From a phage, in the NCBI GenBank assembly GCA_017686895.1, contig GCA_017686895.1_4521.1: a DNA stretch of 64,000 nt. One strand, written 5' to 3'. Position numbers and translations under genes: made by a program. The notes beneath the pieces are model-generated. The model did not search any database and had not been told where the DNA came from. It saw only the letters and a list, made by a program, of their open reading frames with translations. This document shows, piece by piece, positions 372 to 47,381 of this stretch (the first letter of the stretch is position 1; every line of letters begins with the position of its first letter).

Positions 372-647
372 GTGCCCCTCTCAAATCAAAAATATTTTCA
401 TAAACCAGTTTACATCCTCGATAGATATGTTAAGATTAAACCATCTGCTATAGAGGAAAACAAAATGACAATTGAAGATAAAGAAATTAAGGTTGACCAG
501 TATTATTCTGTCAATGGTAATGCAGTACGGATAACCAGAGTTTCAAGCCTGGATGTTTGGTACCGTTCAATCAAATATCCAGAAATTGGTGAAATGCTTT
601 GTGACCGTAGTATCTTCTGTTCAATTGCGAAGGAAATTAAGCCATGA
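372..647 (+). CDS. hypothetical protein (GTG start)
   Basis: 91-aa ORF in densely packed + strand block; no recognisable motif. Confidence 0.25.
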   Translation: MPLSNQKYFHKPVYILDRYVKIKPSAIEENKMTIEDKEIKVDQYYSVNGNAVRITRVSSLDVWYRSIKYPEIGEMLCDRSIFCSIAKEIKP

Positions 648-1532: not shown

Positions 1533-1535
1533 TAA

Positions 1536-1576
1536 TGTACAACGATAGGACGACATGTTATTATCTTCCTATCGTC
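1536..1576 (+). promoter_or_regulatory. early-promoter-like element with 9-bp inverted repeat flanking the -10
   Basis: TGTACA -35-like, TATTAT -10, arms acgatagga / tcctatcgt. Confidence 0.4.
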
Positions 1577-1595
1577 TTAAAATGAGGAAAATATC

Positions 1596-1835
1596 ATGGC
1601 CCAAGAATTAGATTTTATCAAATTCAAAAAACACCTCGACGTTAAAATTGGGGATTCAATTGTTAGGATTGAGTATGACATTTTAACAGATGCTATTACT
1701 GTTAGTTGTGATGGAAATAGTTTCAGCTTCGATACAACCGAAAACAAATACCCAATCTATAAAGGCATCTTTGATATGGGTGTTGATATTACTCCACGTG
1801 ATACAAATTACTTACTTTTCATGCTTAAAAAATAA
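1596..1835 (+). CDS. hypothetical protein
   Basis: 79-aa ORF preceded by promoter-like element and GAGGAAA SD. Confidence 0.4.
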   Translation: MAQELDFIKFKKHLDVKIGDSIVRIEYDILTDAITVSCDGNSFSFDTTENKYPIYKGIFDMGVDITPRDTNYLLFMLKK

Positions 1836-7342: not shown

Positions 7343-7384
7343 ACGCTTTAACATGATGTGGTTATAATGACCACATCAAATTAA

Positions 7385-7585
7385 ATGGAGAACAACATGG
7401 AGTATTCAACCGGACAACATCTTCTTGTTGTCCCTGAAATTAAAAAATATGTTTTGACCAATATGTTTTCAGGTGAAGAACATATTGTTACTGAACAAAT
7501 GCTCAAATCTGCTTTTAAAGATGAGTATAATAAAATAATGTCTAATCGCAATTCCGCATGGACAGTTACCGACTTCTACGAATAA
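7385..7585 (+). CDS. hypothetical protein
   Basis: 66-aa ORF. Confidence 0.35.
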   Translation: MENNMEYSTGQHLLVVPEIKKYVLTNMFSGEEHIVTEQMLKSAFKDEYNKIMSNRNSAWTVTDFYE

Positions 7586-22563: not shown

Positions 22564-24006
22564 GTGGTAGAAATTATTTTGTCTCATCTAGTATACGACC
22601 AGGCTTATTTTTCTAAGGTCTGGCCTTATATGGATTCTGACTATTTTGAGCGTGGACCGGCAAAAAATGTCTTTAAAATTATAAAGAGCCACGTTAACGA
22701 ATATAATGCAATGCCATCTATCAATGCGTTAAAGGTGGCTTTAGATAACAGTTCTTTAACTGAAGCCGAATATAAAGGAACTTCAGACCTAATTGAAAAA
22801 TTGGCTGATACTCCTGAAGACCATGAATGGTTGGTTAAAGAAACTGAGAAATATATCCAGCAAAAAGCGATGTATAATGCTACATCCAAAATCATTGAGA
22901 TTCAGTCTAATGCTGAACTACCTCCGGAACAACGTAACAAGAAAATGCCTGACGTAGGAGCTATTCCTGATATTATGCGTCAAGCACTTTCAATTTCGTT
23001 CGATAGTTATGTTGGGCATGACTGGATGGAAGACTATGAAGCACGTTGGCTTTCTTATCTAAATAAAGCACGTAAGGTCCCGTTCAAATTAAACATTTTG
23101 AATAAAATCACCAAAGGCGGCGCAGAAACAGGTACACTAAACGTTTTAATGGCTGGTGTTAACGTCGGTAAATCTTTAGGCCTTTGTTCACTTGCTGCAG
23201 ATTATCTTCAAACAGGTCATAATGTTCTTTATATTTCCATGGAAATGGCTGAAGAAGTTTGTGCTAAGCGTATAGATGCAAACATGCTTGACGTATCACT
23301 CGATGATATCGATGATGGTAACATATCTTATGCTGAATATAAAGCCAAGATGGAAAAATGGCGTTCAAAAACAACATTAGGACGTTTAGTAGTTAAACAG
23401 TATCCTACTGGCGGAGCTAATGCTAATACATTCCGTGCATTGCTTAATGAGTTAAAACTTAAGAAGAACTTTGTGCCATCTGTAATCATGGTTGATTACT
23501 TAGGTATTTGTGGGTCTTGTCGTATCAGAGTTTACACTGAAAATAGCTACACATTAGTTAAAGCTATCGCAGAAGAACTTCGTGCATTAGCAGTAGAATC
23601 TGAAACAGTTCTATGGACTGCAGCTCAAGTAGGACGTGCAGCATGGGATGCTTCAGACATGAACATGAGTGATATCGCAGAATCAGCAGGTTTACCAGCA
23701 ACGGCAGATTTCATGTTGGCTGTAATTGAAACCGAAGAACTTGCACAAGCTGAACAACAACTTATCAAACAAATCAAATCACGATACGGCGATAAGAATA
23801 AGTGGAATAAATTCCTGATGGGTGTACGTAAAGGCAATCAGAAATGGGTTGAGATTGAGCAAGAAGGCATGAACACACCTAACACAGTAAATGAAAACGC
23901 AGGTGCTCAGATGCGTCAGGCAGAGGTGAATCGTACGGAACGCGTAGGTAAAGCCAAAGCAACACGTGCTGACCTAGATAGCTTAGCCAATGAGTTAAAA
24001 TTTTAA
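22564..24006 (+). CDS. 41: replicative DNA helicase gp41 (DnaB-like)
   Basis: GTG start with AAGGAG SD; MVEIILSHLVYDQAYFSKVWPYMDS matches T4 gp41; Walker A GVNVGKS. Confidence 0.93.
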   Translation: MVEIILSHLVYDQAYFSKVWPYMDSDYFERGPAKNVFKIIKSHVNEYNAMPSINALKVALDNSSLTEAEYKGTSDLIEKLADTPEDHEWLVKETEKYIQQKAMYNATSKIIEIQSNAELPPEQRNKKMPDVGAIPDIMRQALSISFDSYVGHDWMEDYEARWLSYLNKARKVPFKLNILNKITKGGAETGTLNVLMAGVNVGKSLGLCSLAADYLQTGHNVLYISMEMAEEVCAKRIDANMLDVSLDDIDDGNISYAEYKAKMEKWRSKTTLGRLVVKQYPTGGANANTFRALLNELKLKKNFVPSVIMVDYLGICGSCRIRVYTENSYTLVKAIAEELRALAVESETVLWTAAQVGRAAWDASDMNMSDIAESAGLPATADFMLAVIETEELAQAEQQLIKQIKSRYGDKNKWNKFLMGVRKGNQKWVEIEQEGMNTPNTVNENAGAQMRQAEVNRTERVGKAKATRADLDSLANELKF

Positions 24007-24012
24007 TAAAAA

Positions 24013-24028
24013 GGAGACTTCGGTCTCC
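24013..24028 (+). terminator. hairpin (UUCG loop) after gene 41
   Basis: ggagac-ttcg-gtctcc then ttt. Confidence 0.4.
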
Positions 24029-24035
24029 TTTCGGG

Positions 24036-24065
24036 GTTTACATCTTCCTCTAGGCATGATATGAT
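24036..24065 (+). promoter_or_regulatory. early-promoter-like element
   Basis: GTTTAC -35, 18-nt spacer, TATGAT -10. Confidence 0.45.
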
Positions 24066-24094
24066 GTACTTACACAAACCAAGAGGAAAACATT

Positions 24095-24469
24095 ATGAAT
24101 ATGTCTCAAGCAATTTTTACTGCAATCACCGAAAACACAACTGTTGAAGTAGTTTCTCCGCTGGCAACCTACGTTATTCTTGCTCCTAAAACTATTGTAT
24201 CTCGTATGGAAAACACAGGCAAACGTATCGTACAAATAGTTGGAGCTGGAAATCAAAAACTTGATTATCTACGAACCATCAAAGCTTACGAACATTTCCA
24301 ACTCGAAAAAGGTTCTCCTATCCAGGTAGAACTCGTAAATGGTGATATCGTTCGAGCAATGTTCCATCATTTCTATGCATTGAATGACCCATCTAAAGCG
24401 GTTCGTTTAATTGCATATGACGCAAACCAAAACGAAATCAACGCAGATATATCTAAATTACATTTTTAA
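24095..24469 (+). CDS. hypothetical protein
   Basis: 124-aa ORF downstream of early-promoter-like element. Confidence 0.4.
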   Translation: MNMSQAIFTAITENTTVEVVSPLATYVILAPKTIVSRMENTGKRIVQIVGAGNQKLDYLRTIKAYEHFQLEKGSPIQVELVNGDIVRAMFHHFYALNDPSKAVRLIAYDANQNEINADISKLHF

Positions 24470-24518
24470 GTTTACTTCTCCAGTAGTTGTGTTATTATAG
24501 ACCTATCAACTACTGGAG
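24470..24518 (+). promoter_or_regulatory. early-promoter/stem-loop cassette (PeSL-like)
   Basis: GTTTAC -35, TATTAT -10, 12-bp arms ctccagtagttg / caactactggag flanking -10; right arm carries the SD. Confidence 0.5.
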
Positions 24519-24524
24519 AACAAA

Positions 24525-24842
24525 ATGAAAACCATCGATTGTAAAGCAGAATTTAAGATTTTTTATCACGGTTCAAGTAGTTCAGCTAACATCGAAAACA
24601 TGCTTTGTCCTCCTGAAGAAACAGGAGTTCTGTCTGAAACTGGACGTAAGAAAAACTTGGATCGTGTATTCTTTACTGAAGATATCGGTTTAGCAAAGAT
24701 TTATGCAGGACGAGCAGCACGCTCTTATGGAGGTGAACCACGTCTCTATCGAGTAATTTCTCCGGTAGATGTAGTTCAAATGAATGATACTAAAGGCGCT
24801 ACAGTTTATCACGCTGAATGGGCATTTTGCGAGGAAATATGA
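24525..24842 (+). CDS. hypothetical protein
   Basis: 105-aa ORF downstream of promoter/stem-loop cassette. Confidence 0.4.
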   Translation: MKTIDCKAEFKIFYHGSSSSANIENMLCPPEETGVLSETGRKKNLDRVFFTEDIGLAKIYAGRAARSYGGEPRLYRVISPVDVVQMNDTKGATVYHAEWAFCEEI

Positions 24843-25030
24843 GCAAATTAACTAAAGTTACTTTTATCGGTTGGTTTAAAAGCGGTGAGATGTTCACTAA
24901 AGATATCATGTTATCAGGTGATCGCGAAGAAATCGAGTGGGTTACGGTACAACTTGCTGAAGTGAACAATGCATTAGTTAAAGCATTTATTAATGACGAG
25001 AAAGTTTTTGAAGCTGATTTCAGAGGATAA
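24839..25030 (+). CDS. small protein, possible Dmd-like antitoxin (tentative)
   Basis: 63 aa; near gene 41 as dmd is in T4; identity rests on uncertain recall. Confidence 0.4.
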   Translation: MSKLTKVTFIGWFKSGEMFTKDIMLSGDREEIEWVTVQLAEVNNALVKAFINDEKVFEADFRG

Positions 25031-25031
25031 T

Positions 25032-25244
25032 ATGTATTCAACTGTGTTTAAACCATCAACATACGAATTTGCATCAACTACACAATGGAAAGCTCTTATT
25101 CTGGAAGGATGGGAACTAATGATGGACTGCGAAGCATCTGAAAAGTTTCCACACGGCAAAGTGGACTTCGTTAAATTTGCTGTACGTCCGACTAAACGAC
25201 AGATTCGTCAAGAAAAACGCAAATTTCGAAAAAGTTTAAAATAG
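25032..25244 (+). CDS. hypothetical basic protein
   Basis: 70-aa ORF with basic C-terminus. Confidence 0.35.
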   Translation: MYSTVFKPSTYEFASTTQWKALILEGWELMMDCEASEKFPHGKVDFVKFAVRPTKRQIRQEKRKFRKSLK

Positions 25245-25246
25245 CT

Positions 25247-25276
25247 GTTTACAAGCACCACATACTGTGTTACTAT
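25247..25276 (+). promoter_or_regulatory. early-promoter-like element
   Basis: GTTTAC -35, TACTAT -10 upstream of lipoprotein gene. Confidence 0.45.
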
Positions 25277-25304
25277 CTTTCTATCAACTACAGAGGAAAT
25301 TGAA

Positions 25305-25673
25305 ATGAAAAAATTAATCGCTTTAGCAATGGTATTTGGATTAACCGGATGTGGTGCCCATGGCTTTATCCCTAATAACGTCGGCCAATTGATTTACAAT
25401 CCGAATGTTAAACAGTACGACCAACCTAAAGTTGAAGTGGAAGACCCGGTTACTGTAGGTAATCGAATGATTCAAGCTGATGCCCATGCTCAACGTTATC
25501 GTGACTCTGATACCGTAGCATTGTCAAAAGAACAACGCGTTAAAGAACATTGTCTACAGGCTACTGAAATCGCATTCATTCGCTATGTTGAAACAACTGG
25601 TAAAGAGCCTACCCAGAAACAAATCGCGAATAACTACGTCCAGTGTATTGAACGTTTAAACAAATTTAATTAA
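25305..25673 (+). CDS. putative lipoprotein
   Basis: Signal peptide plus lipobox MKKLIALAMVFGLTGC. Confidence 0.5.
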   Translation: MKKLIALAMVFGLTGCGAHGFIPNNVGQLIYNPNVKQYDQPKVEVEDPVTVGNRMIQADAHAQRYRDSDTVALSKEQRVKEHCLQATEIAFIRYVETTGKEPTQKQIANNYVQCIERLNKFN

Positions 25674-25987: not shown

Positions 25988-26026
25988 GTTTACATTATAG
26001 ATGGACTATAGTATAGTAGTCCTATC
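25988..26026 (+). promoter_or_regulatory. early-promoter-like element
   Basis: GTTTAC -35, TATAGT -10, conserved agtcctatc start region. Confidence 0.45.
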
Positions 26027-26046
26027 AAATTAACTAAGGAGTTAAA

Positions 26047-26340
26047 ATGAAAAAGTTATCATTGGCAGCAATCTTACTTGCAGTATCATGTGCACCGGCT
26101 CCAGTTACGGCAGGTTATGATAAAGACCTCTGTGAGTGGTCAATGACTGCAAATCAAGAAGATGTTGAACAACAAATCTTCTCTGATATCATGAACATCA
26201 CTAAACGAGACCGTCCTAATATGGTTAATAAAGTTGTTGAACAACTTAAGTCTGGCGGTATCATGCAGTACAATTATGTTTTGTATTGTGACCCTAATTT
26301 CGATAACAAAGATATCGTAACCGAAATCACAGGTGAATAA
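26047..26340 (+). CDS. sp: periplasmic Spackle-like protein
   Basis: 97 aa with signal peptide; AGYDKDLCEWSMTA...QYNYVLYCD resembles T4 Sp as recalled; adjacent to gene 61. Confidence 0.5.
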   Translation: MKKLSLAAILLAVSCAPAPVTAGYDKDLCEWSMTANQEDVEQQIFSDIMNITKRDRPNMVNKVVEQLKSGGIMQYNYVLYCDPNFDNKDIVTEITGE

Positions 26341-31178: not shown

Positions 31179-31339
31179 AAGAGAAATTGAAAGAGAAATT
31201 CTTACTAGAAATCAAGGAAAAAGACTTTGAGACATGGTATCGAATGGTGAAAGGGTTGACATTGCTTTTTAAAGCATCGTTATTCGTGTTAGAACAACCT
31301 GGCCCTGATGGACCTTTAGTAGGAAAGCTTAAAAAGTAG
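31175..31339 (+). CDS. hypothetical protein
   Basis: 54-aa ORF hand-translated; contains 12-bp tandem duplication gaaagagaaatt. Confidence 0.2.
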   Translation: MKEKLKEKFLLEIKEKDFETWYRMVKGLTLLFKASLFVLEQPGPDGPLVGKLKK

Positions 31340-31367
31340 TTTACATTCCCTCCTCTCGTGTTATGAT
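31339..31367 (+). promoter_or_regulatory. early-promoter-like element
   Basis: GTTTAC -35, TATGAT -10 upstream of modB-like gene. Confidence 0.45.
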
Positions 31368-31394
31368 AGGCTTATCTTTAAATGGAGGTCTATC

Positions 31395-31976
31395 ATGACA
31401 TGTCAATCTGAACTTCAAGAACGCGAATATCTCGCAGCACTAATTGATGATAAATTCACTAAACAAGAACAAAACATTCTCTGGGCTTGCACTGATTATA
31501 AGGAAGACCCGGATTTCCACTATGAATTAGACCATCTTGTTCGTAAGCATATGACTTCTACAGTACCAGTAGAACTCTACCGTGGTGTAACTCCAGAAGA
31601 AGTAGAACGTCTTTCCCTTCTTTCTGTTGGATGTCATTGGTCTCCCGGACGAGTAACATCGTTTACAACAGACTTTGGTACGGCCAGACAGTTCTCTGGG
31701 AGTTGGGAATATCAAACGTACACTATTCTTAGTCTCAGGAATGCTCCGTTCATTTTCGATTACTACCAAAACATGGTTAACATTGTACTCGCCGGAAAGA
31801 ACCCTAAGCATGTTATGGAAGAAAAACGTGTTGACGTCCTAGATATGATTGAATCTGAACAAGAATACATGGTCTCAGGTATCTCTAGATTTGAGATTGT
31901 AGAAATTGAAGACTTAGAATATGACCCTTTATCTCGGTTATACAAAATCATTCATTTGAAAATGTTGAATTTTTAG
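31395..31976 (+). CDS. ADP-ribosyltransferase-like protein (ModB position)
   Basis: Arg (YRG), S-x-T (SFTTDFG) and acidic EQEY motifs in R-S-E order; paralog of next ORF. Confidence 0.5.
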   Translation: MTCQSELQEREYLAALIDDKFTKQEQNILWACTDYKEDPDFHYELDHLVRKHMTSTVPVELYRGVTPEEVERLSLLSVGCHWSPGRVTSFTTDFGTARQFSGSWEYQTYTILSLRNAPFIFDYYQNMVNIVLAGKNPKHVMEEKRVDVLDMIESEQEYMVSGISRFEIVEIEDLEYDPLSRLYKIIHLKMLNF

Positions 31977-36968: not shown

Positions 36969-37388
36969 ATGAATATTGTAAATCTCTCTACAGGTGATTA
37001 CGTATATGTATCTGTTGCTTCTCGCTCTAAAGTTGCCGGGAAGTTGGTTGAAGTTCTTTCTGTGAGTGATCCGGTTTTTGGTCGTAACCAAGTTAAAGTT
37101 CGTGATGCTAATGGTAATATTGGCTACGTCTCAAGCCAGTTCATTGAGCCAGAAGAAAAAGCGTTCAAATGGGGACTATGCAGATCAGTTTCTGTTGAAA
37201 AAGACCATGAATTCACTATTGCTGCGGCAACTGATGGAACGCCATGGAAAACTAAGCAAATCGCCGGATTTATTAGCGACCGTTGGGTAGAAGATGGTGT
37301 TAAGCTTTATAACATCGTTTTCGCTGGTCAGTTCATGGTAGTTCCTGAATTCCAAATTAAAAAATATAGCCCAGCTGCTTTCGCATAA
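36969..37388 (+). CDS. hypothetical protein, paralog family member 3
   Basis: SRSKVAGKLVEVLS and GFISDRWVEDGVKLYNIVFAGQFMVV shared with neighbours. Confidence 0.5.
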   Translation: MNIVNLSTGDYVYVSVASRSKVAGKLVEVLSVSDPVFGRNQVKVRDANGNIGYVSSQFIEPEEKAFKWGLCRSVSVEKDHEFTIAAATDGTPWKTKQIAGFISDRWVEDGVKLYNIVFAGQFMVVPEFQIKKYSPAAFA

Positions 37389-37392
37389 AGTT

Positions 37393-37442
37393 GTTTACTT
37401 CTCCTCTGGTTTTGATATTATAACCATATCAACCAGAGGAGA
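37393..37442 (+). promoter_or_regulatory. early-promoter/stem-loop cassette (PeSL-like)
   Basis: gtttacttctcctctggtt..TATTAT..aaccagaggagaa; 11-12-bp arms flank -10; related to cassette at 24470. Confidence 0.5.
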
Positions 37443-37447
37443 ATAAT

Positions 37448-37972
37448 ATGTTAGTTTACCGCGTAGAACGTAGTTTTTGCACTCAACGTGAATCATTACC
37501 AGGAATTGCTATCGAAGACGGTAAAGCCGTCAGAATTTGGGAAACCTCTTGGAATAAAGAACCTCGTTCGCCATACGGTTGGTCGGGCACCGACAACTCT
37601 GAAGAAACATGGGAGTTCCTTGATAAGCATGGAATACTCTCAGGTAACTTCTACCATCACGGCGACAACTATAATGTCCCTAATCGTCCTACAGTAAATG
37701 AAGACAAACTTCTTGAACAAAATATCTTAAGATACCATAGAATTGAGTACACATTTGAATTGAGTGAAGATTGGGCTCAAGGGTTCTATTTTGGATTTGA
37801 AAGCGTTGACGCGGTTTATGCATGGTTTGATGACCAGGTGGATGTTGAACTCTTGAAAGCTAAAGGATACTACATCGCGGTCTATGAAGCACCTGATTTC
37901 ATCCTCGGAAGTTGTCAATTAATGTTTAGACGTTCATTGGCAGAACAAGTTGATTTTATTTTGCTAAAATGA
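37448..37972 (+). CDS. hypothetical protein
   Basis: 174-aa ORF after promoter/stem-loop cassette. Confidence 0.45.
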   Translation: MLVYRVERSFCTQRESLPGIAIEDGKAVRIWETSWNKEPRSPYGWSGTDNSEETWEFLDKHGILSGNFYHHGDNYNVPNRPTVNEDKLLEQNILRYHRIEYTFELSEDWAQGFYFGFESVDAVYAWFDDQVDVELLKAKGYYIAVYEAPDFILGSCQLMFRRSLAEQVDFILLK

Positions 37973-38029
37973 TGTACAACAACTATGGTCTATGATACTA
38001 TAGACCTATCAAAACAAGAGGAGAATATT

Positions 38030-38257
38030 ATGAAACGTCAAATCATTAAAAACGTAACTACTGATTCAAACATCGATGAGTTTGAAGATGTTCTGTTTAA
38101 TCCTGATTTAGTTGTTGTACAGAAAAACTGGACCAGATTTTTATGCTACACCGAAGTGGTTTACGTTTACGAAAAACTCGGCGATGAAATGCCTATCTAC
38201 GGTATCTTCCGTGAAATCACTGAAAACGGTACAACTTATTGGAAGGAAACTTACTAA
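38030..38257 (+). CDS. hypothetical protein
   Basis: ATG at 38030 after GAGGAG SD. Confidence 0.35.
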
Positions 38258-42301: not shown

Positions 42302-42393
42302 ATCCTGAATAGCCTGAGGCACTATTACACATAAGATGATAGATTATATGGTCTTTAGTAATAGTGCCCTAGGAATCTACTGAAGAGAATATT

Positions 42394-46610: not shown

Positions 46611-46649
46611 GTTTACAACTAAGTAGGACTATGATATAGTAGTCCTATC
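46611..46649 (+). promoter_or_regulatory. early-promoter-like element
   Basis: GTTTAC -35, TATAGT -10, agtcctatc start region. Confidence 0.45.
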
Positions 46650-46666
46650 TAAAAGAGGATAACATC

Positions 46667-46930
46667 ATGAAATTTAAATTTTTCTACGCAAAACATAAAG
46701 TGACTGGTGAGTTTGTTTCAATGTACAACACTGCAGATGACGAAGGGATGATTTATACTCATTTAGGTCTATCTCATTGGGACTCAGACGTGCCTTATAT
46801 GTCATCCGAAGCCGAAATAACTCGTTTAGTTAATGGACATATGAATGACCATTTTGGTGTTATTCTTTCTAAAGACCTTAAAGAGGTTATCAACAAAGGA
46901 TATATGGAACTCGCGGAAGTTGAGATATGA
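46667..46930 (+). CDS. hypothetical protein
   Basis: 87-aa ORF after early-promoter-like element. Confidence 0.4.
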   Translation: MKFKFFYAKHKVTGEFVSMYNTADDEGMIYTHLGLSHWDSDVPYMSSEAEITRLVNGHMNDHFGVILSKDLKEVINKGYMELAEVEI

Positions 46931-47122: not shown

Positions 47123-47160
47123 GTTTACATCATGGTAGGATTATGGTATAGTAGTCCTAT
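47123..47160 (+). promoter_or_regulatory. early-promoter-like element
   Basis: GTTTAC -35, TATAGT -10, agtcctatc start region. Confidence 0.45.
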
Positions 47161-47180
47161 CAAAACACGAGGAATACAAA

Positions 47181-47381
47181 ATGGCTAAGCTTTTTAAAGA
47201 TGTTGAAATTGGTGAAAAATTTGTCCTGAATAATGGTCAGCAGCTTATTCGTGTAGCTTCTATAGCCGGACAAACTCATAACTGCATCGCCCCAACGTGT
47301 TGGACCCGATTCTTTATTGAGGATGACACCGAATGTTTAACCGTTGAAGAGCTTTTTGAACGTTCTGATATGACCGAATAA
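47181..47381 (+). CDS. hypothetical protein
   Basis: 66-aa ORF after early-promoter-like element. Confidence 0.4.
   Translation: MAKLFKDVEIGEKFVLNNGQQLIRVASIAGQTHNCIAPTCWTRFFIEDDTECLTVEELFERSDMTE

What the first reader, a model, noticed from the sequence alone, without database searches (positions are those of the whole stretch)
24470..24518. Promoter cassettes with 12-bp inverted repeats bracketing the -10 and start site
At 24470-24518 the arms ctccagtagttg and caactactggag flank a TATTAT -10. A related cassette at 37393-37442 has arms tctcctctggtt and aaccagaggaga. In both, the right arm contains the ribosome-binding site of the downstream gene. Similar shorter repeats flank the -10 at 1542-1575 and 7355-7377. 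The arrangement could form cruciform or RNA hairpin structures and may act as recombination hotspots or regulatory operators.
Basis: seen in the sequence. Interest (0 to 1): 0.5.

Follow-up and report, generated by a model that had tools for sequence, protein, structure and literature searches.

The report
Early promoters that mask read-through ribosome sites
In this T4-like (RB69-type) phage, two compact early-promoter/ribosome-site cassettes carry an inverted repeat split by the transcription start. RNA made from the cassette's own promoter should therefore have a free ribosome-binding site, while RNA reading in from upstream folds a hairpin that buries it; this is a variant of known T4 tricks, not a new kind of element.

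Summary
The window is an RB69-like T4-type coliphage. At 24470-24527 and 37393-37450 a GTTTAC-N17-TATTAT early promoter abuts a Shine-Dalgarno (SD) sequence and ATG. A 14-bp and a 13-bp perfect inverted repeat have the left arm in the -35/-10 spacer and the right arm over the 5'UTR and GGAG. They are the only perfect repeats of 12 bp or more in 64 kb (shuffles: 0.17).

The predicted start site lies in the loop. Read-through RNA masks the SD (opening cost 17-20 kcal/mol); own-promoter RNA leaves it free (2-3).

The pairing looks selected on the sense strand:
- Arms covary within one cassette family, and the same gene in other phages has compensatory changes.
- Stem mismatches are 11 G·U against 0 A·C.
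- T4 has the same design before denV.
- Masking follows the downstream gene: motB.2 13/13 and denV 30/35 upstream regions, with unrelated stem sequences.

The hairpins do not look like intrinsic terminators, and the arms differ between sites, so a shared operator is unlikely. Homology breakpoints and chimeric cassettes support recombination at cassettes.

Verdict: a variant of PeSL-type cassettes that works like the T4 e/soc/49 gate but with an early promoter. Function is inferred, not shown.

The parts
24470..24475 (+). Cassette A: -35 hexamer GTTTAC (T4-type early promoter). The stop codon of upstream ORF041c is at 24467-24469.
   Evidence: RB69 Pe:20537 in Nolan 2006 supplement
24476..24489 (+). 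Cassette A left arm TTCTCCAGTAGTTG. It lies in the -35/-10 spacer, upstream of the start site, and begins with the anti-SD TCTCC.
24493..24498 (+). Cassette A -10 TATTAT (TG at -15/-14). The predicted start site, A24505, lies in the hairpin loop.
   Evidence: the 3' end of the published promoter model maps to 24505
24507..24520 (+). Cassette A right arm CAACTACTGGAGAA = 5'UTR including SD GGAG 24515-24518. GGAGAACAAAA matches the RegB/S1 consensus 11/11.
24525..24842 (+). Gene served by cassette A: RB69ORF040c homologue, 105 aa (phrog_2110, unknown function).
37393..37398 (+). Cassette B: -35 GTTTAC. The stop codon of the upstream motB-like ORF010c is at 37386-37388.
   Evidence: RB69 Pe:7443
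37399..37411 (+). Cassette B left arm TTCTCCTCTGGTT, in the spacer.
37416..37421 (+). Cassette B -10 TATTAT. The predicted start site, about A37428, lies in the loop.
37431..37443 (+). Cassette B right arm AACCAGAGGAGAA including SD GGAG 37438-37441. GGAGAATAATA matches the RegB consensus 10/11.
37448..37972 (+). Gene served by cassette B: motB.2 homologue, 174 aa.
408..467 (+). Weaker SD-masking cassette: GTTTAC 408-413, left arm TCCTCGATAG 415-424, -10 431-436, right arm CTATAGAGGA 448-457, ATG 465.
   Evidence: p 0.02; SD opening cost 8.1 read-through vs 0.9 own
24036..24097 (+). Weak SD-complementary cassette before ORF041c: left TTCCTCTAGG 24045-24054, right CCAAGAGGAA 24079-24088. It is preceded by the gene 41 terminator hairpin at 24010-24031. 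Predicted masking is small.
   Evidence: p 0.0035; 3.1 vs 2.2
31339..31397 (+). Early cassette with a short anti-SD: CCCTCCT 31348-31354 against TGGAGGT 31383-31389.
   Evidence: 11.5 vs 3.9
1533..1598 (+). The right arm covers the start site, not the SD; -35 is TGTACA-like; ATG 1596.
7344..7399 (+). CGCTTTA 7344-7350 lies 12 nt upstream and resembles a MotA box (a possible middle promoter). The SD is not in the arm; ATG 7397.
   Evidence: MotA-box consensus
25988..26049 (+). Second-flavour cassette: left arm in the spacer 25999-26010, right arm over the -10/start site 26015-26027, SD left free.
   Evidence: p 0.003
46611..46669 (+). Second-flavour cassette: arms 46622-46633 / 46638-46649.
   Evidence: p 0.004
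47123..47183 (+). Second-flavour cassette: arms 47132-47145 / 47150-47163, with a U·G wobble on the sense strand.
37973..38032 (+). Cassette before cef: -35 TGTACA 37973-37978, arms GGTCTAT 37987-37993 / ATAGACC 38000-38006, -10 TACTAT 37996-38001, ATG 38030. It is the partner of cassette B in the motB.2 deletion seen in phage TH58.

Best explanation
Each site is a compact (about 58 bp) T4-type early-promoter plus ribosome-binding-site cassette that abuts the stop codon of the previous gene.

The 17-nt spacer between -35 and -10 is the one part of the promoter free to vary. It encodes an anti-Shine-Dalgarno arm that is complementary to the 20-nt 5'UTR. Transcription from the cassette's own promoter starts in the loop (A24505; about A37428). 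That mRNA lacks the left arm and has an open SD, so it can be translated. Its SD also matches the target of the phage nuclease RegB.

RNA that arrives from upstream promoters carries both arms. No terminator separates ORF041c from ORF040c, or ORF010c from motB.2. This RNA folds a 13-14 bp hairpin that buries the SD, so the downstream gene is not translated from read-through transcripts. The result is that the gene is expressed only from its own early promoter, insulated from its genomic context.

What is shown: the anatomy, the folding energetics, selection for the pairing, and its tie to particular downstream genes. What is inferred: use of the start site in vivo, the translation block, and its biological purpose.

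Separately, the conserved cassette backbone acts as a site of homologous exchange between phages.
For: Promoter identity and start site:
- The sigma-70 scan calls both promoters, with an extended -10.
- They coincide with RB69 Pe:20537 and Pe:7443. The 3' ends of those models (the start site) map into the loops.

Energetics:
- Read-through RNAs fold at -22.8 and -28.1 kcal/mol (z -3.8 and -3.95) with the SD paired. Own transcripts fold at -1.0 and -0.9 (z +1.0 and +1.5).
- Opening the SD costs 17.1 and 20.1 kcal/mol in read-through RNA against 2.9 and 1.9 in own RNA.
- The left arms begin 7 and 11 nt after the upstream stop codon. I infer from ribosome footprint size that this is roughly at the edge of a terminating ribosome, so upstream translation should not melt the stem.

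Selection for pairing:
- In one cassette family with identical -35, -10 and start region, the arms covary: CTCC-AG-TAG/CTA-CT-GGAG, -AT-/-AT-, -TG-/-CA-.
- On that unfiltered 31-sequence family, changes on both sides number 30 cells against 18.1±2.8 in shuffles, and the covariation score is 0.202 against 0.142 (0/500 shuffles reach it). Shifted registers score lower.
- Cassette B in phage ESh15 has G:C changed to A:U plus a U·G wobble.
- Among 112 distinct cassettes, 18 have stems of 10 or more, against 0.07 in shuffles and 2.2 when spacers are re-paired with other cassettes.
- Stem mismatches are 11 G·U against 0 A·C.

Tie to the downstream gene:
- motB.2 is masked in 13/13 distinct upstream regions, with three unrelated stem sequences.
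- denV is masked in 30/35, median 13.4 against 2.8 kcal/mol, and the pairing partner lies upstream of the start site in 31/35.
- Shuffling the sequence upstream of the start site gives masking in only 8% and 27% of cases.
- T4 denV has TCTCCTGTAG/CTACAGGAGA around its -10.
- Among all window cassettes only 4/18 mask the SD.

Precedent: T4 e, soc, 49 and I-TevI use the same logic with late promoters; the gene e structure reduces lysozyme synthesis about 100-fold.
Against: - There are no experimental data for this phage. The start sites are predicted, and in vivo folding and the translation block are not shown.
- About as many cassettes carry a second flavour of repeat, where the right arm covers the -10/start site and the SD stays free. 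Examples are 25999-26027, 46622-46649 and 47132-47163, and RB51 has a 13-bp stem ending 14 nt before the SD. SD masking cannot explain all promoter-embedded hairpins.
- In such short cassettes the spacer and the 5'UTR are almost the only places an arm could sit, so overlap with the SD could be partly geometric.
- For ORF040c, strong masking is limited to the RB69-like lineage (7/34 family-wide).
- The sequences compared are related and recombining, so shuffle statistics overstate independence.
Confidence: 0.65

Rival explanations
1. The PeSL reading: the stem-loop serves the upstream gene. It would act as a transcription terminator or attenuator, or as a 3'-end hairpin that protects the upstream mRNA from exonucleases. 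It overlaps the next promoter only because the genome is so compact, and burying the SD is incidental.
For: - Arbiol 2010 and Comeau 2014 describe promoter/stem-loop cassettes in T4-type phages and showed terminator activity for one RB49 stem-loop.
- The second flavour of repeat, which leaves the SD free, fits this reading better.
- Strong stems occur where the upstream ORF abuts the promoter with no terminator. ORF040c cassettes that follow a terminator (JS98-like, Yersinia phages, LF82-1, VR20) have only 0-6 bp of pairing.
Against: - There is no U-tract after either stem (AACAAAAUG, UAAUAUG), and the loops are 16-19 nt. The terminator scan does not call them.
- Masking follows the downstream gene across genera even though the upstream neighbours differ. 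For motB.2 the upstream gene is dexA in JS98 and ORF010c here.
- In denV relatives the common feature is that the SD is the paired element, not the position of the hairpin.
Confidence: 0.2
2. A DNA-level element: the inverted repeats are selected as recombination hotspots, through hairpin or cruciform DNA or a recombination protein, to shuffle genes between phages.
For: - Homology with other genera starts or stops at cassette edges or inside cassettes. Query positions 64/65, 88, 91 and 116 for A, and ends at 64 and 121 for B.
- ORF041c is absent in LF82-1, and motB.2 is absent in TH58, which carries a chimeric cassette.
- JS98 cassette L091 is a left/right chimera.
- PeSL mini-circles are documented.
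Against: - Exchange needs only the shared backbone (GTTTAC...TAYTATAGACCTATCAAC...GGAGAA). It does not need pairing between the arms.
- It does not explain compensatory changes, the G·U-only mismatches on the sense strand, or why the SD is the paired element in gene after gene.
- Loops of 16-19 nt disfavour cruciform extrusion (general knowledge).
Confidence: 0.07
3. No function: the repeats arise and are perfected by templated (quasi-palindrome) mutation or by cassette recombination. The covariation would be a mutational by-product.
For: Templated correction of quasi-palindromes is a known mutational route in T4 (my own knowledge, not tested here). The cassettes are paralogous and recombine.
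Against: - The mismatch spectrum is strand-asymmetric.
- Unrelated stem sequences mask the same gene in different genera.
- Pairing decays where a terminator lies upstream.
Confidence: 0.05
4. A palindromic operator for a DNA-binding regulator that overlaps the -10 and start site.
For: The dyad symmetry is centred on the -10/start region, where repressors often bind.
Against: - Arm sequences differ between A, B and the other cassettes, and vary freely among relatives as long as pairing is kept.
- Only the SD/anti-SD part is shared.
- No regulator is implicated.
Confidence: 0.03

Closest known systems
PeSL (promoter-early stem-loop) cassettes of T4-type phages (Arbiol et al. 2010, PMC2839356; Comeau et al. 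2014, PMC4122927). This includes the PeSL-like early-promoter/stem-loop repeats at the T-even internal-protein loci (Repoila 1994, as cited).
   Same: - An intergenic early promoter (for T4/PST: TTTACW-N17-TAYWAT) plus a stem-loop plus SD and ATG in under 100 bp.
- Many copies per genome, next to small genes of unknown function in variable regions.
- Indels and replacements between relatives with crossovers in or at the cassettes.
- The T4 denV cassette sits at the ipII locus.
   Different: - Published stem-loops are compact units. They are G-rich in RB49, and 'just upstream of the promoter' in PST. They are interpreted as terminators.
- Here the two arms are split by the -10 and start site, the loop is 16-19 nt, no U-tract follows, and the right arm is the SD itself.
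- The 2010 PeSL paper does not contain the words ribosome, translation or mRNA.
T4 genes e, soc, 49 and I-TevI: ribosome site sequestered in long transcripts, with a promoter inside the hairpin (reviewed in PMC3014915)
   Same: The SD is buried in a helix on transcripts started upstream. A promoter is placed so that its own transcript lacks the 5' arm and is translated.
   Different: - In those cases the internal promoter is a late (gp55, TATAAATA) promoter, and the effect is 'late only'.
- Here it is a sigma-70-type early promoter, the 5' arm is the promoter's own spacer, and the predicted effect is 'own early promoter only'.
- Nothing has been tested experimentally here.
Intrinsic (Rho-independent) terminators
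   Same: A stable RNA hairpin between two genes.
   Different: No U-tract, a long loop and an AU-rich stem; not called by the scan. A true terminator is present nearby after gene 41 (24010-24031).
RegB/S1 cleavage sites in T4 early mRNAs (GGAGRAYARAA; PMC1702504)
   Same: The SDs of A (GGAGAACAAAA) and B (GGAGAATAATA) fit the consensus 11/11 and 10/11.
   Different: This is a match by sequence only. Cleavage, and its predicted block by the hairpin, were not tested.

Membership tests
PeSL-type cassette | Early (sigma-70-type / T4-type) promoter in an intergenic space, with SD and start codon at its 3' end | tested here: met
   GTTTAC-N17-TATTAT with TG at -15/-14, then SD and ATG within 58 bp. 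Coincides with published RB69 predictions.
PeSL-type cassette | A stem-loop overlapping or adjacent to the promoter | tested here: met
   14- and 13-bp perfect stems. However, the geometry (arms split by the -10 and start site, right arm = SD) is not among the published positions.
PeSL-type cassette | Repeated through the genome, next to small variable genes | tested here: met
   At least 19 cassettes in the window. The four neighbouring ORFs scanned (starts 465, 24095, 24525, 37448) have no Pfam family.
PeSL-type cassette | Associated with indels and replacements between relatives, with crossovers within cassettes | tested here: met
   BLAST breakpoints at cassette edges. LF82-1 lacks ORF041c; TH58 lacks motB.2 and has a chimeric cassette; L091 is a chimera.
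PeSL-type cassette | The stem-loop is an effective transcription terminator | tested here: not met
   The sequence signature of an intrinsic terminator is absent: no T-run, loop 16-19 nt, not called. A functional assay is not possible with these tools.
PeSL-type cassette | Mini-circle formation by recombination between neighbouring cassettes | not testable with these tools
   Needs inverse PCR on phage DNA.
T4 e/soc/49/I-TevI-type translational gate | SD and/or AUG sequestered in a helix on transcripts started upstream | tested here: met
   Predicted only: SD opening cost 17.1 and 20.1 kcal/mol in read-through RNA.
T4 e/soc/49/I-TevI-type translational gate | A promoter placed so that its transcript lacks the 5' arm | tested here: met
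   The predicted start site lies in the loop. Own transcripts are unstructured at -1.0 and -0.9 kcal/mol. The start site is predicted, not mapped.
T4 e/soc/49/I-TevI-type translational gate | The internal promoter is a late promoter (TATAAATA), giving late-only expression | tested here: not met
   The internal promoter is of the early GTTTAC/TATTAT type.
T4 e/soc/49/I-TevI-type translational gate | Reduced translation from long transcripts shown experimentally | not testable with these tools
   Needs reporter fusions or toeprinting.
Intrinsic terminator | G+C-rich stem, 3-8 nt loop, U-tract | tested here: not met
Palindromic operator | The same half-site sequence recurs at the regulated promoters | tested here: not met
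   The arms differ between cassettes and vary among relatives while pairing is kept.
Known RNA family (Rfam) | Match to a curated covariance model | tested here: not met
   0 matches at gathering score in the whole window.

The most novel reading that the evidence does not exclude
The hairpin is a transcript-origin switch with several outputs, and it is a portable design rule of T-even early cassettes.

On read-through RNA it would:
- block ribosomes;
- hide the GGAG from the RegB nuclease, which secondary structure is known to inhibit;
- possibly expose the RNA to Rho by leaving the ORF untranslated.

On the short own-promoter mRNA the same GGAG is open, so it is translated in a brief burst and then cut by RegB.

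Genes such as motB.2, denV and ORF040c would then be strictly 'immediate-early only'. This would also partly explain why RegB spares middle and late transcripts that cross the same intergenic sites.
Probability: 0.2. Interest if true: 0.6.

Novelty: new variant of a known kind. Interest (0 to 1): 0.4.

Why it matters
If the reading is right, T4-type phages encode in the otherwise 'free' promoter spacer a signal that distinguishes mRNA by where it started. Each small early gene then carries its own promoter, ribosome site and insulation from upstream transcription in about 60 bp.

That would explain how such genes can be shuffled between genomes without disturbing expression, and how expression is confined to the first minutes of infection. 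It also gives a simple, testable rule for annotating and engineering T4-like phages used in therapy: look for an anti-SD directly after the -35.

It does not change the general picture. Promoter/stem-loop cassettes and promoter-in-hairpin translational control are both established in T4.

Tried and rejected
- Intrinsic terminator: scanned, not called; no U-tract.
- Known RNA family: Rfam gave 0 hits in 64 kb.
- Protein clues to why these genes would need tight control: Pfam gave nothing, PHROGs gave 'unknown function'.
- Shared operator or cruciform: rejected because the arms vary and the mismatches are strand-asymmetric.
- Chance: rejected. The other 10-bp repeats found (about 6197 and 34033) lie inside coding sequence and look like chance.
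- Correlation of strong stems with the absence of an upstream terminator in the window: suggestive only (5 of about 11 cassettes against 1 of 4), too few to test.
- Literature: the T4 genome review (PMC150520) and Repoila 1994 (PMC395341) are not held. No T4 genome-wide start-site or 3'-end data were found in the library. I therefore cannot exclude that the denV or motB.2 hairpins were noted in older papers.

Full report
**What the window is.**
The region 23500-25500 is 99.9% identical to Escherichia phage vB_Eco_mar005P1 and 98.8% identical to RB69 (Mosigvirus, T4-type), in reverse orientation relative to those records. By RB69's annotation, site A lies between RB69ORF041c and RB69ORF040c, downstream of gene 41 and upstream of dmd. 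Site B lies between the motB-like RB69ORF010c and motB.2, upstream of cef. All genes here are on the + strand.

**Observation.**

- Cassette A: GTTTAC 24470-75; TTCTCCAGTAGTTG 24476-89; TGT; TATTAT 24493-98; AGACCTA (A24505); T; CAACTACTGGAGAA 24507-20; CAAA; ATG 24525.
- Cassette B: GTTTAC 37393-98; TTCTCCTCTGGTT 37399-411; TTGA; TATTAT 37416-21; AACCATA (A37428); TC; AACCAGAGGAGAA 37431-43; TAAT; ATG 37448.

The perfect stems are 14 and 13 bp, slightly longer than reported, and GGAG sits 6 nt before each ATG. These are the only perfect inverted repeats of 12 bp or more with a 3-40 nt loop in the 64 kb; block shuffles give a mean of 0.17. The shorter repeats at 1542-1575 and 7355-7377 are also real.

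**Promoters.**
A simple search finds 17 + strand cassettes of the form GTTTAC(A/T)-N16/17-TAnnnT, then about 7 nt, ATC, an SD and ATG, each about 60 bp. The sigma-70 scan calls A and B with an extended -10.

Nolan et al. 2006 predicted RB69 early promoters Pe:20537 and Pe:7443 at exactly these places. The 3' ends of their models, which are their nucleotide 0 (the start site), map to window 24505 and about 37428. Both positions are inside the loops.

**Is the repeat a property of the cassettes?**
I scored duplexes between the spacer and everything from the -10 to the ATG, against 2000 spacer shuffles. A and B have z -6.8 and -6.1, and 6 of 17 cassettes have p<=0.005, where about 0.09 would be expected.

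The repeats come in two flavours:

- The right arm is the 5'UTR and SD: A, B, and more weakly the cassettes at 408 and 24036.
- The right arm is the 3' half of the -10 plus the start site, and the SD stays free: 25999-26027, 46622-46649, 47132-47163, 37987-38006 and 1542-1575.

**Folding.**
- Read-through RNAs (106 nt) fold at -22.8 and -28.1 kcal/mol (z -3.8 and -3.95) with the SD in the stem.
- RNAs starting at the predicted start site fold at -1.0 and -0.9 kcal/mol (z +1.0 and +1.5).
- Opening the SD costs 17.1 and 20.1 kcal/mol in read-through RNA, against 2.9 and 1.9 in own RNA.

No terminator-like site lies between the upstream promoters and either cassette. The upstream stop codons end 7 and 11 nt before the stems. 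I infer that a terminating ribosome would melt at most a few base pairs.

**Evidence that pairing is selected.**
- T4 has the same cassette before denV: GTTTAC-ATCTCCTGTAG-GTATGA-TACTAT-AGACCTATCAA-CTACAGGAGA...ATG. Compared with A, the central pair is swapped (A:U to U:A).
- I scanned IMG/VR for GTTTAC-N17-TAYTATAGACCTATCAAC, a pattern that does not specify the arms. It returned 33 distinct cassettes in which the arms covary: AG/CT, AT/AT, TG/CA.
- On the unfiltered 31-sequence alignment, 57.6% of cells are paired against 53.0±1.1 in shuffles. Cells changed on both sides number 30 against 18.1±2.8. The covariation score is 0.202 against 0.142 (0/500 shuffles reach it), and slipped registers score lower.
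- Within Mosigvirus, phage ESh15 carries cassette B as TTCTCCTCTAGTT/GACTAGAGGAGAA, which is a compensatory G:C to A:U change plus a U·G wobble.
- Over 112 distinct GTTTAC cassettes from all loci fetched, 38 have a stem score of 7 or more (shuffle 3.9). Eighteen score 10 or more (shuffle 0.07; re-pairing spacers with other cassettes 2.2).
- Internal mismatches are 11 G·U on the sense strand, 0 A·C and 4 others. So it is the sense strand that folds, most simply as RNA.
- An anti-SD tetramer occurs in 42 of 91 distinct spacers (shuffle 8.0±2.6), almost always 2-6 nt after the -35.

These sets are related and partly selected by my own searches, so the statistics overstate independence.

**Masking follows the downstream gene.**
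This is the main argument for the mechanism.

- motB.2: 13 of 13 distinct upstream regions mask the SD in read-through RNA only (12.5-19.2 against 0.8-2.4 kcal/mol). They use three unrelated stems: CTGGTT/AACCAG here, CATG/CATG in JS98-like phages where dexA is the upstream gene, and a 17-bp stem in a third lineage.
- denV: 30 of 35 regions differ by 4 kcal/mol or more (median 13.4 against 2.8). The pairing partner lies upstream of the predicted start site in 31 of 35. In some the partner sits in the spacer and in others in the -10/discriminator region.
- Control: shuffling the sequence upstream of the start site gives such a difference in 8% (denV) and 27% (motB.2) of cases, and a difference of 8 kcal/mol or more in 1%.
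- Baseline: only 4 of 18 window cassettes mask the SD.
- ORF040c: only 7 of 34 in the family do so. The strong stem is specific to the RB69-like lineage, where ORF041c has been placed upstream with no terminator. Where gene 41 and its terminator directly precede the cassette, pairing is reduced to 0-6 bp.

**Mechanism I commit to.**
A read-through-specific SD mask. The logic is that of T4 e, soc, 49 and I-TevI, where long transcripts sequester the ribosome site and a promoter inside the structure gives a translatable RNA. The differences are that the internal promoter here is an early one and its own spacer serves as the 5' arm. The predicted consequence is that the gene is translated only from its own early promoter. 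Confidence is about 0.65.

**Rivals.**
- The PeSL reading (terminator/attenuator, or 3' stabiliser for the upstream mRNA) fits the second flavour of repeat. It cannot be excluded for A and B, but the terminator signature is absent and masking tracks the downstream gene.
- A shared operator is excluded by the variability of the arms.
- A cruciform is unlikely given the long loops and the strand-asymmetric mismatches.
- A purely mutational origin does not explain the asymmetry or the gene-specific conservation.

**Recombination.**

- Dhakavirus and Yersinia phages share ORF040c with its cassette starting exactly at the -35 edge. Other phages join at the -10 or at the SD.
- T4-like phages lose homology exactly at the -35 of cassette B. 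TH58 and PNJ-9 lose it at the ATG. JS98-like phages match the cassette alone.
- LF82-1 lacks ORF041c. TH58 lacks motB.2 and has a cassette made of the left part of B and the right part of the cef cassette. JS98 has a left/right chimera.

This matches PeSL-mediated modular shuffling.

**RegB.**
The SDs of A and B match the RegB/S1 consensus GGAGRAYARAA 11/11 and 10/11, and secondary structure protects RNA from RegB. The hairpin may therefore also decide which transcripts RegB can cut. This is inference only.

**Novelty.**
Promoter/stem-loop cassettes in T4-type phages have been described since 1994, 2010 and 2014. Promoter-in-hairpin translational control is textbook T4.

What I did not find described in the papers I could read:

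- the split geometry, with the spacer as an anti-SD arm and the SD as the other arm;
- its covariation;
- its gene-specific conservation (denV, motB.2).

The 2010 PeSL paper does not mention translation or ribosomes, and the 2010 review lists only late-promoter examples. I rate it a new variant of a known kind, of moderate interest.

Noticed in passing
window 25999-26027, 46622-46649, 47132-47163, 37987-38006, 1542-1575: A second flavour of promoter-embedded inverted repeat. The left arm is in the spacer and the right arm covers the 3' half of the -10 plus the start site, so the SD stays free. It is as frequent as the SD-masking flavour. It is also seen in T4 before ipII (a 14-bp stem in L060) and in RB51 (13 bp). 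SD masking does not explain its purpose.
   Followed up: partly
Comeau 2014 called such elements PmSL in phage nt-1.
   Followed up: partly
window 42313-42373: A 16-nt inverted repeat (88%) with a 29-nt loop, in the intergenic space before a 66-aa ORF (ATG 42394) that precedes a 737-aa rIIA-sized ORF. It has no GTTTAC promoter. Its nature was not studied.
   Followed up: no
window 24095-24469 and 37448-37972; loci L006, L095: Gene-sized presence/absence differences bounded by cassettes. ORF041c is missing in phage LF82-1. motB.2 is missing in TH58, and BLAST coordinates suggest the same for PNJ-9.
   Followed up: partly
window 24515-24525 and 37438-37448: Both SDs fit the RegB/S1 cleavage consensus GGAGRAYARAA (11/11 and 10/11). 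The other cassette SDs I checked by eye fit less well.
   Followed up: partly
window 24525-24842; loci L007-L056: The ORF040c family (phrog_2110, no Pfam domain) is present in 50 T4-like IMG/VR contigs at 55-100% identity, with a conserved N-terminus MKTI(D/H)C...YHGS. One GenBank record labels a feature at the matching place as ADP-ribosyl transferase (H118). Neither the label nor which feature it belongs to was checked.
   Followed up: no
window 24010-24031: A canonical terminator hairpin (AAAGGAGAC-TTCG-GTCTCCTTT) lies directly after gene 41 and directly before the ORF041c promoter. This is the PST-type 'stem-loop just upstream of the promoter' arrangement.
   Followed up: partly
window 37985-38257: The mechanical ORF call starts at 37985, upstream of the gene's own promoter. 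The SD and promoter indicate that the cef-like gene starts at 38030.
   Followed up: yes
whole window: No Rfam family reaches its gathering score anywhere in the 64 kb.
   Followed up: yes
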